Shown in pieces: positions 34,701-40,700 of a stretch of 64,000 nt of DNA. Source of the DNA: an uncultured Trueperaceae bacterium (GTDB lineage: Bacteria > Deinococcota > Deinococci > Deinococcales > Trueperaceae); the NCBI GenBank assembly GCA_963727505.1, contig CAVSGP010000004.1, positions 672,001 through 736,000 of the forward strand, in the 5' to 3' direction. The position numbers are program-made. Each line of letters starts with the position of its first letter. The first letter of the stretch is position 1.

Positions 34701-37700
34701 CGCAGCAGCTCGCCGGGCCGCGGCAGGTCGACGGCCACCAGGTGATGGTCCTGACGCACTACTTCAACGGCGTGCCGGTCTCCGAGGACTACATGCAGTT
34801 CGGACCGGACGGCGTCCACACGCTCGGCACGGCAGCCGGCGGCAAGGTGACGATCTACCCCACTCCTTTGACGGTCTACCCCGCCGGTCCTCTGCAACCG
34901 GGCATGCAATGGCAGAGCACCACCAAGCTGCCCGCGTTCGACATCACCCTTTCGTCCGAGGTCATCGGCGTGCGGGGCGTGAAGACGCAGGCCGGGCGCT
35001 TCAACGCCCTGCAGATCCGACAGCGCACCCTCACCAGCAACGGCGCCAAGACGATCATGGACCTGTTCTTCGTGCCCAGCGTTGGCATCGTCCGCTTCGT
35101 GACGCAGGACGGCACGACCATCGATCTGATCGACAAGAACTTCTGACGACGGTTCAGTCTTCCCCGAGCAGCGCCGCCTTGAACGCCGCGAAGCGATCCT
35201 CGGCCAGACTGTCGCGGATGTCCTCCATGAGGCGCGCCATGAAGCGCAGATTGTGCACGGTCACGAGCTGCTGCGCGAGCCGCTCGTTGGCCTTGAACAG
35301 GTGACGCACGTAGCTGCGGCTGTAGCTCCGGCAGGCCGCACAGTCGCATCCTTCCTCTAGCGGCCGCAGATCCTCGGCGAATCGCGCGTTGCGCAGGTTG
35401 AGACGGAAGGTGGCGAGGCGCTCGCCGTCGTCGCCCCGACGTACGAAGGCCGCGCCGTTGCGGGCGTTGCGGGTCGGCGCCACGCAGTCGAAGGTGTCCA
35501 CACCGCGCTCGACGGCCTCGAGGATGCTGGGCACGTCCCCGATGCCGAGCAGATGCCGCGGCTTCGCTTCCGGCAGCTCGGGAACCGTCCAGTCGAGCAC
35601 CGCGTACATGTCCTGCAGCGTGCTGCCGAGGTTCCCGCCGATGGCCATGCCATCGAACGGCATGGCCCCGATGGTGGCAGCACTCTCCTGGCGCAGGTCG
35701 CGGAACGCGCCCCCCTGCACCACTCCGAACAGCGCCTGCGGGTAGCCGTGCCTCGGCGTGGAGCGCTCGAAGGCGCGCAGGCTGCGCTCGGCCCAGCGGT
35801 GCGTGCGCTCCATCGAACGGCGGGTGTACTCCTCATCGTGCAACGGGCTGGTGCACTCGTCGAAGGCGAGCACCATGTCGGCGCCGAGGGCGCGCTGCAC
35901 CTCGATGGACACCTCGGGCGAGAAGTCATGGAGGCTGCCGTCGATGTGGCTCTTGAAGCGCACCCCCTCCTCGCGGATGCGCACCATCGAGCTGCCCCGT
36001 GGCAGGCGTGGCGGCGCCTCGCCGGGGAAGATCGAGGCCACCTTGCCGACCCCGTGCTCGATGGAGGCACCCAGGGAGAACACCTGGAAGCCGCCCGAGT
36101 CCGTCAGGATCGGGCCGTGCCAGTTCATGAAGCGGTGGAGGCCGCCGTGCCGCTCGACGATCTCCGCGCCCGGGCGCAGGTAGAGGTGGTAGGTGTTGGC
36201 GAACAGGAGCTGGGTCCCGGCCGCGGCTACCGCGTCCGGCGCCACGCCCTTGACCGCCGCCTGCGTTCCCACCACGACGAACGCCGGTGTGCGTACCGCG
36301 CCGTGCGCCGTCTCCAGGGTCCCGAGCCGCGCCGCGCCGCGGCGCTCGTGCAGGGTGAAGGTGGGGGCATTCGGGTCCATGGTGGCGGCCCGCCATTGTA
36401 CCCGCCGGCCGTTGGCGGCGCCGTCCTGTAGCGCGACCCTTGGTGTCCACGCACGGCTCGGCTCACAGCGCGACAACGGAGGGCCCACTTTGCCCGATTT
36501 CACGTCTGCTTAGCACGGCACGCCCTATGATGCACGCATCGGGCATTGCCCGATCTTGGAACGCGATGAAACCCGTCTCCTAACGTGGGCGCTTGAGACG
36601 GGTGGAGCGAGTAGCGCAACCGGCCAAGGTGAGTCAATCCTCATCCTCAGCCGAACACGCGTCCACAACGGCTCCGCAAGGGGTCGTCGAGGGAGTATCC
36701 GGTCGTGCCACGAGTTCATGCTCGCGCACGCAAGCCGGGACCCCCCGGAAGCGATGAAGCCTGTCCTGCACTTGGGCGCTTGGGACAGGTGGAGCCAGTA
36801 GCGCAACCGGCCAGGCGGGTCCTTTGTGGTCCAACGCAGCACCGTCGGTCAGGCGCCCCGAATCGTTCGAGAGGCTTCGAGGCGAGGACCGATGGTGGCC
36901 GACAGCGCGTCAGGCAAGAGCACCGCAGTCCTGCACAGGGTTCGCCGCAGGCGGATCGCCGGCTGGCTTCGCATCGTCTACCTGGCCCTGGCGGCGGCCG
37001 TCGTCCTGTCGGAAGCGGGCTGTTCGTCCGTTGGGACGGAGGTCCCGGCGAGCCTCACGAGCGCATCTGACGTTCCGCAGCCGATGTTCGGGGCCTACAC
37101 GGACGGCGGCGTCTGGCAGGGCATGGAGCCTGTCCGGCAACTCGAAACGTTGCTCGGACGCAAGCTCGATATCGTGCACTGGTTCATGAGTTGGGACACG
37201 CCCTACGACATCGCCCTCGTCGAAGCGGCCAGCGCCGACGGCCGACGTCCTCTCATCACCTGGGAGCCGAACCACCAGGCGGTCCAGGCCATCGCCGCGG
37301 GCACGTACGACGGGCTCATCCGAGATTTCGCAGACGGCGTGCGTGCCACGCCCGGGATCGTGTACGTTCGTCCGTTCCCCGAGATGAATGGGGATTGGGT
37401 GCCTTGGAACGGAGACCCCGCCGCCCTGGTGGCGGCCTGGCGCCACATGGTGACCGTGTTCCGGGCCGAGGGAGCGGACAACGTGCGGTGGGTCTGGAGC
37501 CCCAACGTGACGGACCAGCCCAACACACCTGCCAACGCCATGGAGCGCTACTACCCTGGCAGCTCTTACGTCGATGTGTTGGCACTGGACGGTTACAACT
37601 GGGGTACGACAACGAGCTGGAGCACGTGGCAGAGCTATACAGAGATCTTCGCGCAACCGTACGCGCGCATCACCGCACTGGGGCCGCAACCGGTGTGGAT

Positions 37701-40700
37701 CACGGAGATCGCCTCCGCCAGCCAGGGCGGAGACAAGGCCGCGTGGGTCGCGAACATGCTCAATACGTCGGCCTTCCCCCGCATTCAGGCCCTGGTCTGG
37801 TTCAACCAGAACAAGGAAGCGGATTGGCGGATCGACAACTCGGCCAACGTCATCCAGGCGGCTCGCGTCAATCTTGGCCCCGGAACCGCCACCCTTGCGA
37901 GCCGATGAGCCACGAGGCATGCTGACGTCGTCGAGCCAGGGCATCCTGTCAGAGAAGGTACCGGCTCCGCCCTTCCCCCGGGGACGCTGGATGAAGTCCG
38001 GATGAACCTCGCCGTTGGGAGATCTGTCACAATCTCACCGGGCACCGTCGTAGGATTCATGAGTCGGGCAAGGCCCGACCTTGGAAGCGATGAAGCCCGT
38101 TTCCCAACGTGGGCGCTCGAGACGGGCGGAGCGAGCAGCGCAACCGTCCAGGCAGATTCGTAGCTGCCCATCGTCGGTCAGGCGCACCTAGTTCTTCGCG
38201 AGGCGACGATGGCGATGGTGTCTCAGTCGAACGAGAGTGGTGAACGGCGTAGCCGCGCGAGCGGCCGGCGCTTCACGACGGCGATCGCGATCACGATCGC
38301 CGTGCTCGTGCTGGCAACCGGGTGTTCGAGCGTGGCCAGCCGACCGCCCCGAACCGTCGCCCGCCCATCGGATGTCCGGCCGATGTTCGGCGCCTTCACC
38401 TACGGTGGCGTGTGGCAGGGGATGGAGCCCGTTCGCCAGCTCGAAGATCTGCTCGGACGCAAGCTCGACGTGGTCCACTGGTACATGAGCTGGGACACGC
38501 CCTACGACGTCGCTCTCGTGAAGGCGGCCATCGCCGGCGGGCGCCTGCCCATGATCACCTGGCAACCCCACCACCAGACCGTCTCCGACATCGCTTCCGG
38601 AACCTACGACGGCACCCTCCGCAGTTTCGCCGACGGCGTGCGGGCCACGCCCGGCCTCGTCTACGTGCGCCCCTTCCCCGAGATGAACGGTGACTGGGAA
38701 CCCTGGAACGGACAGCCGGCTACCTTCGTGAGGGCGTGGCGCCACATGGTCGACGTCTTCCGAGCCGAAGGCGCCGACAACGTGCGGTGGGTCTGGTCGC
38801 CCAACGACACCGACCAGCCAAGTACCCCTGCCAACGCCATGGAGCGGTACTACCCCGGTAACGCCTACGTCGACATCCTTGCTCTGGACGGCTACAACTG
38901 GGGAACGAGCCGGAGCTGGAGCACATGGCGCAGCTTCAGCGACATCTTCGCCCAGCCCTACGCCCGCATCACCGCCCTCGGACCTCAGCCCGTGTGGATC
39001 GCCGAGGTCGCCTCGACCAGCAAGGGTGGCGACAAGGCCGCCTGGGTCGCCGGCATGCTCGACACCAAGCAGTTCCCCCGTATCCGAGCGCTGATCTGGT
39101 TCAACCACAACAACGACATGGACTGGCGCCTGGACAATTCGCTCGCCGTGGTCCAGTCCGCACGGGCGAACCTTGCGCCCAACCTCGACGCGGCCGCCAG
39201 CCGCTAAGCGTTCGCGCGCCCATCGAAGTCCATCGCGACTCGTCCACCGGACAGCTCGATCTCGACGCGGTGCTGACGGTCCTGAACCTACACCTCTCCC
39301 TCACCACCGACGTCAGCCCCGACGGCCGGCTCTACCTCACGACGCTCTACCTCACGACGGTGAATGGCACACTGGTTCGCCTCAGCGCGCGCTGGCGCGC
39401 GCGCTCGACGCCACGGAGGCGCGCGAGCCCGAGAAGAGCCGTTGCAGCACCGCGCTGTACATCCCTGCGTCCTCGATCCCGTAGGAGGCCACGATCGCCT
39501 GGCTCCGCTGGTAGGCGGTGGCCAGGCCGAGCTTCCCGGCGGCGACGTCCGCGCTCTCCGCCACGAGCTGTCGTTCGGGTGCCGCCAGTGACGTCGGATC
39601 TACCCGATAGGCAGCGTACGCGCTGCCCAGGGCGTCGACGAGCGGCCCGAGGCGCAGCATGGCCTCGACCGGTCCCTGCAGGTTCCCCACGATCTGGTCC
39701 TTCCGGGTTACGCCGTGCACCGGGTTGATGTACAGGGCGTAGGCGAAGGCGTCGTCCTTGGCGGCCGGCTGCGCCAGCGCCCACGCCAGCTTCGCCGCAC
39801 CGGCGCAGACCGAGAAGTCGGGATCGAAGACGTTGAACGACCCGCTCAGGAGGTGCGGGTTGTACAGAGGCTTGTTCACGTCCTCGGAGACTGCACGCAG
39901 CAGCGTCAGCGCATCGGACGTCATCTGCGAGAGCCCCTTGTCGCCGGTCTGGCCGACGGCAAGCGGATTGAGATAGGACTCGTTGATGAGCACTTGAAGC
40001 AGAAGCCGCGCTGGCACCCCGTAAGCGGTGGACGCCTCTTCGATGTAGGGTTCGATCGGAGCCAGCCGACCCAGCATGAGCAGCTCGAAGTGGTTCAGGG
40101 GCCGGTAACCCTCGGCCGACCCGGGCAGGGTCTGCGGGGCCTCGCTGGGCTGTCGCAGATAGGCGGGCCGGCAGTAGTCCGAGAGTGCTGGCCGAGGTTC
40201 GTAAGACGGGGTAGCGGCGGCCGCCCCGTCGGCTCCCCCGCCGCCACCGCCGGCGGCGATCCGGGCGAAGGCCGCGGGCGCGGCCAGGGCGACCGCTCCC
40301 GTCACGGTAGCGTGAGCACGTGGAGCCTCCAGCCGGCGCGCGGAGCGCGACACGGGATCGAGCGGTAGCGCGATGGAAGCCTGGAACACGGGGATCGTCG
40401 CGCTCCCGGCCGGTTCCAGCAACAGCGCAGGGGCGACCTGCGCCGCATGCAAGGGCAACCACTCGTGCTGTGCCATGTCGAGGCGCGGCGTGTGCTCCAG
40501 CAGTCGCTGGGTGGCAAGCGGATCCGCTCCCGAGGCCGGCGCCAGCGCCAGGATGGCCACGAACACCGCCGTCAGGGACGTCAGCATGGTGGCGGCCGTA
40601 CCCAGCGTTCGTTTGTCGACGCCGCGCGCGGTGGGCCGCTCCCAGGCCACACCCTGGGTCCCCTTGACCGCCCTGCGGCTCGCTGCGCGACGCTCCCGGA

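What a model noticed while it worked through the whole genome (the two positions that open the first line are those of the whole stretch)
36550..39207. c-di-GMP-II riboswitch regulon of lipoprotein glycanases, with two miscalled genes
Besides the jellyroll gene, all but one of the other c-di-GMP-II aptamers sit before genes of lipoprotein glycan-active enzymes: a tandem pair before GH26 lipoprotein g01061 (C4:708892-709908), a GAG-variant aptamer before its paralog g01062 (C4:710209-711207), one before GH99+metallophosphatase lipoprotein g01534 (C5:151880-154096; aptamer 154249-154334), a tandem pair before a beta-helix (pectate-lyase-like) lipoprotein on C2, and one before its frameshifted paralog on C15; the last one (C4:785209-785293) precedes a decayed locus. 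So c-di-GMP here switches extracellular polysaccharide-cutting enzymes through RNA. Gene g00319 is called about 250 codons too short: an open frame of 588 codons [...]
Evidence so far: Aptamer places and scores: rna.tsv and call 57 (8 over gathering 53.5 bits; 2 GAG variants 51.2 and 48.9 bits with RF01786, over gathering with RF03169 in rna.tsv). Lipoboxes and frames read from the DNA. The GH26 link is conserved: of 20 loci with a GH26 homolog given to Rfam (18 Trueperaceae or Deinococci, 1 Deinococcus pimensis, 1 Treponemataceae), 16 have a c-di-GMP-II aptamer upstream, 8 of them a tandem pair; the 2 outgroup loci and 2 of the 18 have none.
(Added by a program. Inside this text positions count along the whole contig: contig position 672,001 is position 1 of the stretch shown here. 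"Call 12" and the like, gene names such as g00115 and contig names such as C1 are that model's own, and its searches are not shown. The text may have been shortened before it was handed on; [...] marks where a part breaks off. The agent that wrote the report below was given it as the finding of a first reader that could run no searches.)

Follow-up and report, generated by a model that had tools for sequence, protein, structure and literature searches.

The report
c-di-GMP riboswitches before secreted beta-glucanase genes
Two neighbouring genes for secreted sugar-chain-cutting enzymes each sit behind RNA sensors of the bacterial signal c-di-GMP, a known kind of switch found here on a new and widely conserved set of target genes.

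Summary
Rfam finds two tandem c-di-GMP-II aptamers (36550-36633, 36738-36821) before GH26a (36892-37908) and a third (38074-38157) before its paralog GH26b (38209-39207).

Corrections and additions:
- **The enzymes.** They are full-length homologs of the C. thermocellum lichenase CtLic26A (E 2e-53), with both catalytic glutamates kept.
- **The "GAG variant" before GH26b.** This is a threshold artefact. The aptamer keeps the canonical GCAACC site. It is a chimera left by a ~190-nt deletion between two tandem aptamers, and contigs from another study carry the same form.
- **Conservation in Trueperaceae.** 19 of 21 Trueperaceae-like homolog loci with upstream DNA carry the aptamer, 11 as tandem pairs.
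- **Other phyla.** Four homolog loci in Bacillota and Actinomycetota carry class-I-type aptamers instead (c-di-GMP-I or its GGC variant).
- **Control mechanism.** Control looks translational. No terminators were found, and a stem covers the ribosome-binding site (SD) and the start codon. A conserved element complementary to the aptamer's pseudoknot loop lies beside that stem.

The direction of switching is unresolved; I lean towards OFF. This is a known riboswitch class with a new regulon.

The parts
36526..36531 (+). -10-like hexamer TATGAT ahead of leader a
   Evidence: Read. A TAnnnT hexamer lies at a like distance upstream of the first aptamer in relatives. The consensus promoter scan found none, so this is inference.
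36540..36552 (+). 5' hairpin CGGGCAUUGCCCG overlapping the outer P1 letters of aptamer 1
   Evidence: Fold. The same CGGGC-N3-GCCCG hairpin stands before the first aptamers of L016, L017 and L018.
36550..36633 (+). c-di-GMP-II aptamer 1 (first of the tandem pair)
   Evidence: RF01786 64.1 bits, E 5e-12, full model; canonical GCAACCGG site.
36658..36664 (+). CGCGTCC, element complementary (6 of 7, G.U allowed) to the loop GGGCGCU of aptamer 1
   Evidence: The same element follows the first aptamers of the tandem pairs in relatives.
36738..36821 (+). c-di-GMP-II aptamer 2 (gene-proximal)
   Evidence: RF01786 71.4 bits, E 4.6e-14.
36840..36858 (+). Expression platform: 5' arm of the sequestering stem (CACCGTCGGTC, 36840-36850), then the loop-complement GGCGCCC (36852-36858)
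   Evidence: Folds. Loop:motif duplex -18.8 kcal/mol against -11.0 for shuffled motifs.
36879..36897 (+). SD region (GAGGCGAGGA) and 3' arm GACCGATGGTG, which holds the start codon ATG at 36892
   Evidence: An 11-bp helix with 36840-36850 appears in every fold. P(unpaired SD..AUG) is 0.19.
36892..37908 (+). GH26a, 338 aa, Lic26A-type GH26 glycanase with signal peptide and Cys (LSEAGC)
   Evidence: PDB 2v3g/2bv9 Endoglucanase H, E 2.2e-53 over residues 73-331 against 12-283 of 283. E164 and E272 align with chain E109 and E222. AF2 pLDDT 87.6.
38051..38056 (+). -10-like hexamer TAGGAT ahead of leader b
   Evidence: conserved in L016. Inference only.
38063..38079 (+). 5' hairpin GTCGGGCAAGGCCCGAC
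38074..38157 (+). Single chimeric c-di-GMP-II aptamer: 5' two thirds from the first and 3' end from the second aptamer of an ancestral tandem pair
   Evidence: 51.2 bits on RF01786 and 44.7 on RF03169. It reads GCAACCG. Compared with L016:3733-3816 and 3925-4006. Contigs from another study span 37794-38409 without gaps.
38168..38212 (+). Platform b: CCATCGTCG (38168-38176) pairs with CGACGATGG (38204-38212, which holds the ATG at 38209); degenerate loop-complement GGCGCAC at 38181-38187; SD GAGG at 38200-38203
   Evidence: The arms covary with those of leader a.
38209..39207 (+). GH26b, 332 aa, paralog (71% identical) with canonical lipobox LATGC
39382..42144 (-). Convergent neighbour: 920-aa GT2 glycosyltransferase with a QIERW (QxxRW-type) motif, fused to a C-terminal SLT domain. 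It may make the substrate; it is not shown to belong to the system.
   Evidence: Pfam. Adjacent to the GH26 homolog in 15 relatives' loci, including a rearranged one, L025. 85 homologs.

Best explanation
The window holds two riboswitch-controlled transcription units of a Trueperaceae bacterium. Each starts about 10-20 nt before a c-di-GMP-II aptamer and encodes a secreted, probably lipid-anchored, GH26 enzyme of the lichenase (CtLic26A) type. The likely substrate is a beta-1,3-1,4-glucan or a related beta-glycan.

GH26a has two complete aptamers in tandem. GH26b has one aptamer, made when a deletion fused its two ancestral tandem aptamers.

Control acts on translation. A stem in the 50-70-nt platform pairs the start codon and part of the SD. 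Next to its 5' arm lies a short conserved element complementary to the aptamer's pseudoknot loop (GGGCGCU).

My reading, which is inferred and not shown, is as follows. Without c-di-GMP the loop can capture this element and loosen the sequestering stem. With c-di-GMP bound, the loop is locked in the aptamer's own pseudoknot, the stem closes, and translation falls. That makes it an OFF switch, with the tandem pair sharpening the response.

The same logic, sensor RNA before secreted glycan-active enzymes, holds at five further loci of this genome. I put the regulon and the translational mode at about 0.85 and the OFF direction at about 0.55.
For: **Aptamers.**
- Searches give the matches.
- The pseudoknot covaries among the genome's 10 aptamers: GCGCU/AGCGC, GCAUC/GAUGC and GCGCC/GGCGC.

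**c-di-GMP signalling.** The genome has 21 GGDEF and 10 EAL matches. 50 of 61 family genomes carry the aptamer.

**Enzyme identity.**. CtLic26A is named a beta-1,3/1,4-glucanase in PMC10470212 (passages read).

**Conservation.**
- 19 of 21 Trueperaceae-like loci with upstream DNA carry the aptamer, 11 as tandem pairs.
- Beta-helix homolog loci: 2 of 2 with upstream DNA.
- Independent recurrence with other aptamer families: c-di-GMP-I before a Bacillota homolog (L042) and c-di-GMP-I-GGC before L141 (tandem), L191 and L201. That is 3 of the 77 other loci; all 79 loci were scanned.

**Translational mode.**
- 0 terminator-like sites.
- The aptamer-to-start distance is 49-101 nt.
- The start codon is paired in the folds of nearly all loci. 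Mean P(unpaired) is 0.31-0.35.
- The stem arms covary between leader a and leader b.

**Loop-complement element.**
- 28 of 35 aptamers have a 7/7 complement within 75 nt downstream, against 20.6% of shuffles. Exact GCGCCC occurs in 21 of 35.
- Loop:motif duplex is -18.8 against -11.2 kcal/mol for shuffled motifs, and 18 of 19 loci are at least 3 kcal better.
- In L026, L027, L030 and L031 the element pairs directly with the GGGCG of the SD region.

**Chimera.**; confirmed as DNA in runs of a second study.
Against: - Nested-structure modelling shows no difference in SD/AUG accessibility between 'aptamer folded' and 'aptamer open': 0.35 against 0.33 over 17 GH26 leaders. It shows none for the four other leaders tested, C9, C2, C5 and C4:785209.
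- The motif:SD duplex is barely better than shuffled (-15.8 against -14.1), with only 7 of 19 loci at least 3 kcal better.
- In leader a the loop-complement lies beside, not inside, the 11-bp helix that hides the AUG.
- All four class II riboswitches of C. difficile are ON switches (PMC11477304, passages).
- The loop never varies among the gene-proximal GH26 aptamers, so there is no compensatory change to prove the loop:motif pairing.
- The loci are related, so the counts overstate independence.
- There is no ligand-binding, expression or enzyme data.
- GH26a's lipobox has Glu at -3.
Confidence: 0.7

Rival explanations
1. Same riboswitches, opposite sign. c-di-GMP binding opens the SD/AUG (an ON switch), so the surface-anchored glycanases are made in the attached, high-c-di-GMP state. 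They would then digest polymers of the colonised surface or trim the cell's own matrix glycan as it is made.
For: - All class II riboswitches characterised in C. difficile are ON (PMC11477304 passages).
- In the folds the stem hides the AUG by default, whatever the state of the aptamer, as expected if a ligand-dependent event must open it.
- In leader a the 3' end of P1 (GGUCCU) is complementary to AGGACC in the SD region. I read this.
- The regulon's enzymes (lichenase type, GH99, pectate-lyase-like) look like a foraging set, and lipid anchoring suits surface-bound digestion.
Against: - The P1-3'/SD complementarity is not kept in the relatives I inspected by eye.
- No aptamer segment is conserved as a direct anti-SD.
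- The conserved element is complementary to the aptamer, not to the SD. That fits capture in the ligand-free state.
Confidence: 0.35
2. The aptamer before GH26b is a dead relic. The deletion chimera no longer binds c-di-GMP or no longer switches, so GH26b is expressed constitutively or is permanently masked. Only GH26a is regulated.
For: - It scores below the RF01786 gathering score, 51.2 against 53.5.
- The outer P1 is mismatched (NC marks).
- It has substitutions at otherwise conserved places: AGT to AGC, and CCGGCC to CCGTCC.
- Its loop-complement is degenerate, GGCGCAC, 6 of 7.
Against: - The binding-site letters GCAACCG, P2, P3, the loop and 5 inner P1 pairs are intact.
- The sequestering stem and SD are intact.
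- The gene is intact with both catalytic Glu.
- The same form persists in samples of a second study.
- Single aptamers serve 8 of the 19 relatives' loci that carry one.
Confidence: 0.3
3. Control is mainly transcriptional (Rho-dependent, or an unusual terminator) rather than translational, at least for the first aptamer of the tandem pair, which has no SD of its own.
For: - The first aptamer is followed by its own structured 88-108-nt spacer carrying the same loop-complement element, like a complete unit with an output of its own.
- The consensus terminator scan is tuned to U-rich tails, which a 70% G+C organism may not use.
Against: - 0 terminator-like sites in 36300-39500, where shuffles gave a mean of 1.2.
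- The gene-proximal platform ends in a stem over the start codon in nearly all loci.
Confidence: 0.2

Closest known systems
c-di-GMP-II riboswitch (Rfam RF01786), including the tandem doublets and triplets described by Sherlock et al. 2022 (PMC9481103; passages read)
   Same: Full-length matches over the gathering score, canonical binding-site letters, a covarying pseudoknot, 5'-UTR position, and two aptamers of one class in tandem.
   Different: - **Host and targets.** Trueperaceae GH26, beta-helix and GH99 lipoproteins, where the published tandems sit mostly before a COG4932 surface-anchor gene in Paraclostridium.
- **Mechanism.** No terminator; instead a stem over the start codon plus an element complementary to the pseudoknot loop.
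- **Earlier print.** Enrichment of tandem c-di-GMP riboswitches in Deinococcota is noted at phylum level in PMC12452182 (passages read). In the passages I saw, that paper names no Deinococcota target genes.
C. difficile class II riboswitches (pilA1, CD2831, CD3246, cmrRST; PMC11477304, passages read)
   Same: Same aptamer class, controlling surface or secreted proteins as outputs of c-di-GMP.
   Different: Those are transcriptional ON switches, one acting through a group I ribozyme. Here control looks translational and the sign is open.
CtLic26A, the GH26 module of C. thermocellum endoglucanase H (PDB 2BV9, 2V3G and others)
   Same: End-to-end homology (E 2e-53), both catalytic glutamates, and the PxEMNGDW and ExAS motifs.
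   Different: A stand-alone lipoprotein with no dockerin or other modules. Identity is moderate and the substrate is untested. GH26 also holds mannanases, beta-1,3-xylanases and mixed-linkage xylanases (PMC10470212).
c-di-GMP-II-GAG variant (Rfam RF03169)
   Same: The window's third aptamer passes this family's lower gathering score (44.7 against 40). The GH99 aptamer on C5 scores 61.1.
   Different: The window aptamer reads GCA where the family consensus has GAG. The GH99 aptamer reads CGAAC, which matches neither consensus. I recall that the variant comes from Weinberg et al. 2017 (PNAS); that paper was not held, and its ligand is unknown to me.

Membership tests
c-di-GMP-II riboswitch (RF01786) | Covariance-model score at or above the gathering score (53.5 bits) over the full model | tested here: met
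   Aptamers 1 and 2 score 64.1 and 71.4 bits. Aptamer 3 scores 51.2 bits, just below.
c-di-GMP-II riboswitch (RF01786) | Conserved core letters, including the GCAACCG pseudoknot/binding strand | tested here: met
   All three window aptamers read GCGCAACCG.
c-di-GMP-II riboswitch (RF01786) | Pseudoknot between the P3 loop and the 3' strand, supported by covariation | tested here: met
   Among the genome's 10 aptamers the loop and 3' strand change together: GCGCU/AGCGC, GCAUC/GAUGC, GCGCC/GGCGC. I read this by eye; it was not scored with the count of structure pairs.
c-di-GMP-II riboswitch (RF01786) | Binds c-di-GMP and changes expression of the gene downstream | not testable with these tools
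   No binding or expression data; no RNA run listed.
c-di-GMP-II-GAG variant (RF03169) | GAG in place of GCA in the binding strand (consensus GGCGAGACCG) | tested here: not met
   The window aptamer 3 reads AGCGCAACCG. The match line is blank at both changed places.
Tandem (pseudo-cooperative) riboswitch | Two complete aptamers of one class in one leader, each with its own platform | tested here: inconclusive
   There are two complete aptamers 104 nt apart, and each is followed by a loop-complement element. No separate output of the first unit could be shown.
GH26, lichenase (CtLic26A) branch | Full-length homology to the solved GH26 catalytic module | tested here: met
   Residues 73-331 against 12-283 of 283, E 2.2e-53. 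Mannanases match only in part, at E 1e-7 or weaker.
GH26, lichenase (CtLic26A) branch | Two catalytic glutamates (acid/base and nucleophile) on a (beta/alpha)8 barrel | tested here: met
   E164 is invariant and E272 is kept in at least 90% of 27 sequences. They align with chain E109 and E222. The AF2 model has 8 alternating strands and helices, pLDDT 87.6. No fold search was run.
GH26, lichenase (CtLic26A) branch | Hydrolyses beta-1,3-1,4-glucan | not testable with these tools
   Needs an enzyme assay.
Bacterial lipoprotein | Signal peptide ending in a lipobox [LVI][ASTVI][GAS]C (motif recalled) | tested here: inconclusive
   GH26b has LATGC, which fits. GH26a has SEAGC, with Glu at -3, which does not fit. 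The Cys is kept in about two thirds of the Trueperaceae homologs. No predictor was run.

The most novel reading that the evidence does not exclude
Lic26A-type GH26 lipoproteins are dedicated matrix glucanases for a beta-glucan exopolysaccharide that the cell makes itself, perhaps with the adjacent GT2-SLT synthase (QxxRW motif). Cyclic-di-GMP-type riboswitches of at least three Rfam families in three phyla have been recruited independently to shut them off while the matrix is built and release them for dispersal. In Trueperaceae the switch would work by a mechanism not yet described for class II: an expression-platform element competes with the aptamer's own 3' strand for the pseudoknot loop.
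Probability: 0.2. Interest if true: 0.7.

Novelty: new member of a known kind. Interest (0 to 1): 0.5.

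Why it matters
What c-di-GMP controls in Deinococcota is largely uncharted. This regulon names concrete outputs, secreted glycan-cutting lipoproteins, in a family where 50 of 61 sampled genomes carry the aptamer.

One GH26 branch is tied to cyclic-di-GMP-type riboswitches of different families in three phyla. 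That points to a general and testable link between this messenger and beta-glucan turnover.

The leaders also offer two things. One is a natural example of a tandem pair collapsing into one chimeric aptamer. The other is a compact translational platform built around the pseudoknot loop, which could be tested directly.

Tried and rejected
- **Terminator and promoter scan** of 36300-39500 found nothing.
- **Nested-fold modelling** of SD/AUG accessibility, bound against free, showed no consistent difference. This held for 17 GH26 leaders and 4 other leaders, so it cannot settle on or off.
- **Motif:SD duplex energies** were hardly better than shuffled.
- **GT2-SLT neighbour** against PDB by phmmer: no hit. 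I did not fold it.
- **GH99 homologs.** Only 4 full-length loci of the 80 returned were scanned, and none had an aptamer. The other 76 match mostly the phosphatase domain and were not scanned.
- **L029 and L036** have no aptamer even at E<=1 with my own model.
- **RNA evidence:** no RNA holder listed.
- **Earlier findings:** nothing on record.
- **Papers not held.** The PNAS 2017 paper on variant riboswitch classes was not held. What I say about the origin of the GAG and GGC variants is therefore recalled.
- **Searches for prior print of the gene link:**
  - 'riboswitch'+'c-di-GMP'+'GH26': 0 papers.
  - 'riboswitch'+'Truepera': 1 paper, irrelevant.
  - 'c-di-GMP-II'+'riboswitch'+'Deinococcus': 2 papers, irrelevant by title and abstract.
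  - Four terms with glycoside hydrolase and lipoprotein: nothing relevant in the 12 papers listed.
- **Supplements of PMC12452182**, which may list Deinococcota target genes, were not opened.
- **The class-I leader of L042.** I tried to read its logic by eye and gave up. It has a terminator-like hairpin with a U run, but its sign is unclear.

Full report
**What is there.**
Rfam at gathering threshold finds two full-length c-di-GMP-II aptamers on the + strand. They lie at 36550-36633 (64.1 bits) and 36738-36821 (71.4 bits). A third match at 38074-38157 is filed under the GAG variant RF03169 (44.7 bits).

The first pair precedes an open frame whose likely start is the ATG at 36892, with GAGGCGAGGA just upstream. 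That frame ends at 37908. The third aptamer precedes a 71%-identical paralog at 38209-39207.

The window is C4:672001-736000 of a 3.26-Mb, 70% G+C assembly. Its nearest relatives in the species collection are titled Trueperaceae.

**The regulon.**
A whole-genome scan with RF01786 gives 10 matches at 7 loci. Eight are over the gathering score and two score 51.2 and 48.9 bits.

The frames downstream are as follows:
- The two GH26 genes.
- A 588-codon frame on C2 with Big_7, Beta_helix and Pel9A-like hits, and a weak match to pectate lyase PelN.
- A split frame on C15.
- A 188-aa and a 137-aa protein with signal peptides but no Pfam family.
- A 762-aa GH99 + PKD + metallophosphatase protein on C5.

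Cys-containing lipobox-like ends are readable in five of the seven proteins. GH26a's is LSEAGC, with Glu at -3, which is not canonical. Its Cys is kept in most relatives.

The C15 locus resembles the C2 protein only at 26-32% identity, over two reading frames. It is therefore at best a distant, frame-broken paralog.

The genome has 21 GGDEF and 10 EAL matches. In the family, 50 of 61 genomes sampled, this one included, carry at least one class II aptamer, and one carries 21.

**What the enzymes are.**
Against the PDB, however, GH26a aligns from residue 73 to 331 with residues 12-283 of the 283-residue GH26 module of C. thermocellum endoglucanase H, at E 2.2e-53. Mannanases and beta-1,3-xylanases match only in part, at E 1e-7 or weaker.

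That module is CtLic26A, called a beta-1,3/1,4-glucanase (lichenase) in PMC10470212 (passages read).

In an alignment of 27 homologs, E164 (PFPEMNGDW) is invariant and E272 (ITEIAS) is kept in at least 90%. They align with E109 and E222 of the chain. An AlphaFold model has pLDDT 87.6 and eight alternating strands and helices.

So these are full GH26 enzymes of the lichenase branch. The substrate is inferred, not shown.

**The 'GAG variant' is a deletion chimera.**
The RF03169 consensus reads GGCGAGACCG where RF01786 reads GUGCAACCG. The window's third aptamer reads AGCGCAACCG, and it mismatches RF03169 at exactly the two defining places. It scores higher on RF01786 (51.2 bits) than on RF03169 (44.7 bits). 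It is listed under the variant only because that family's cut-off is lower.

In the closest relative (L016, 80% identical protein) both paralogs have tandem pairs. The window's aptamer matches the first of L016's second pair over its 5' two thirds. From GCGCAACCG onward it matches the second aptamer's 3' end and platform.

A deletion of about 190 nt between the two aptamers, within their shared GGAGCGAGTAGCGCAACCGG stretch, explains the single aptamer. It also explains the mismatched outer P1 and the low score.

Contigs of two runs from a different study span 37794-38409 with 1-3 differences and no gap. A 1717-nt contig of another run spans the tandem pair and GH26a. The arrangement is therefore not an artefact of this assembly.

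Two other aptamers of the genome do deviate in the binding strand. The GH99 aptamer reads GCGCGAACGG, and the one at C4:785209 reads GCGCGACCGG.

**Conservation.**
A scan of one genome per species returned 37 loci with a GH26a relative.
- 24 are Trueperaceae-like, and 21 of those include DNA upstream of the gene.
- 19 of the 21 have a class II aptamer upstream on the same strand, 11 of them as a tandem pair.
- L029 and L036 have none, even with my own model at E<=1.
- Some loci are pieces or second copies from one MAG: L029/L046, L032/L047 and L034/L045.
- Of 13 outgroup loci, none has class II. One, L042 (a Bacillota MAG), has a c-di-GMP-I aptamer of 83.7 bits. It is followed by a hairpin with a U run, AAGGAGA and the ATG of a signal-peptide GH26.

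Starting from that protein, 79 more loci were fetched and all were scanned. Apart from the query's own locus and the Trueperaceae one, 3 of 77 carry c-di-GMP-I-GGC aptamers directly before the gene:
- A tandem pair in Ca. Dehalobacter alkaniphilus (L141), followed by GGAG, 8 nt, then ATG.
- Single ones in two Actinomycetota MAGs (L191, L201).

The other 74 have none. The link is thus near-universal in Trueperaceae and recurs, rarely but with different aptamer families, in two other phyla. I do not know the ligand of the GGC variant.

For the beta-helix protein, 2 of 2 homolog loci with upstream DNA have aptamers. For GH99, 0 of the 4 full-length homolog loci scanned do, out of 80 returned.

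**How it may work.**
No terminator-like site lies in 36300-39500. The distance from the gene-proximal aptamer to the start codon is 49-101 nt.

In leader a, CACCGTCGGTC (36840-36850) pairs with GACCGATGGTG (36887-36897), which holds the ATG. In leader b, CCATCGTCG pairs with CGACGATGG. The arms covary between the two leaders. In the relatives the SD-to-AUG stretch is likewise mostly paired.

Beside the 5' arm lies a short element, (A/G)GCGCCC, the complement of the aptamer's P3 loop GGGCGCU. That loop forms the pseudoknot with the aptamer's own AGCGC..CC strand.
- 28 of 35 aptamers in these leaders, first and second aptamers of tandem pairs alike, have a 7-of-7 complement (G.U allowed) within 75 nt downstream. 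In shuffles the rate is 20.6%.
- 21 of 35 have exact GCGCCC.
- The loop:element duplex averages -18.8 kcal/mol, against -11.2 for shuffled elements.
- In L026, L027, L030 and L031 the element also pairs with GGGCG in the SD region.

In the C9 and C2 leaders the platform instead holds the complement of the aptamer's 3' pseudoknot strand, CCGGUUGCAUC. Both designs aim at the pseudoknot.

From this I infer that the ligand-free loop captures the platform element and loosens the stem. Ligand binding locks the loop and closes the stem, which makes an OFF switch.

This is not shown.
- Nested-fold modelling gives no difference between states.
- The element:SD energies are weak.
- The loop does not vary, so no compensatory change exists.
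- The only characterised class II switches are ON.

I put OFF at about 0.55.

**Context.**
Upstream, on the - strand, lies tgt. Downstream and convergent lies a 920-aa GT2 glycosyltransferase with a QIERW motif, fused to an SLT domain.

This gene lies next to the GH26 homolog in 15 relatives' loci. These include L025, where it sits on the other side, and L028, where tgt is absent. tgt is syntenic in 10 loci too, so part of this is plain inheritance.

Bacterial mixed-linkage beta-glucan made by c-di-GMP-linked GT2 synthases is known from S. meliloti and R. ilealis (PMC5567048 abstract; PMC10374906 passages). That makes a self-made substrate conceivable, but nothing here shows it.

**Novelty.**
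The aptamer class and tandem class II arrangements are known (PMC9481103). The enrichment of tandem c-di-GMP riboswitches in Deinococcota is also in print (PMC12452182).

I found no paper linking them to GH26 or to Trueperaceae genes.

The new points are:
- the target set;
- the cross-phylum tie of one GH26 branch to cyclic-di-GMP-type riboswitches;
- the pseudoknot-directed platform element;
- the natural chimeric aptamer.

Noticed in passing
window 39382-42144 (-): A 920-aa fusion of a GT2 glycosyltransferase (QIERW motif, membrane stretch) with a C-terminal SLT lytic-transglycosylase domain. 85 homologs were found, nearly all with the same fusion; the few that sources name are Trueperaceae or Truepera. 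It often lies beside the GH26 gene.
   Followed up: partly
G000:C5:154249-154334 and G000:C4:785209-785293: Two aptamers of this genome carry changes in the binding strand: GCGCGAACGG before the GH99 gene, and GCGCGACCGG before the 137-aa frame. They may have altered or lost ligand recognition.
   Followed up: partly
G000:C5:151880-154168: The GH99+metallophosphatase protein has no Trueperaceae relative among the 80 best loci. Its full-length relatives lie in Anaerolineales, Gaiellaceae and Chloroflexia MAGs, and its phosphatase domain has three paralogs on C4. It looks acquired, with the riboswitch added in this lineage.
   Followed up: partly
G000:C10:81843-82917: A further relative of the C2 beta-helix protein, spread over three reading frames and with no aptamer match nearby. 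It is probably a pseudogene.
   Followed up: no
G000:C9 and C2 tandem pairs: In these two tandem pairs the first aptamer uses the pseudoknot pair GCGCU/AGCGC and the second uses GCAUC/GAUGC. In the GH26a pair both use GCGCU. Different pseudoknots might keep neighbouring aptamers from mispairing.
   Followed up: no
L042:119-2356: In the Bacillota MAG, the class-I-controlled GH26 gene follows an AlgX/DHHW-like SGNH protein and a GH16+CBM4_9 protein, which is another beta-glucanase family.
   Followed up: partly
L140 and L141 (Ca. Dehalobacter alkaniphilus chromosome): Two GH26 paralogs lie about 3.6 kb apart. Only the second has the tandem GGC-variant aptamers. The DNA before the first looks like the end of a nucleotide-sugar dehydratase gene, judged by eye and not scanned.
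   Followed up: no
window 36594-36884 in runs X3 and X4: Summed contig depth rises about 5- to 10-fold over the aptamers, and contigs break there. This is as expected if the aptamer sequence is shared by many loci and organisms in those samples.
   Followed up: no
G000:C9:142150-142599: A GGDEF-domain gene lies about 2.6 kb from the riboswitch-controlled 188-aa gene on C9.
   Followed up: no
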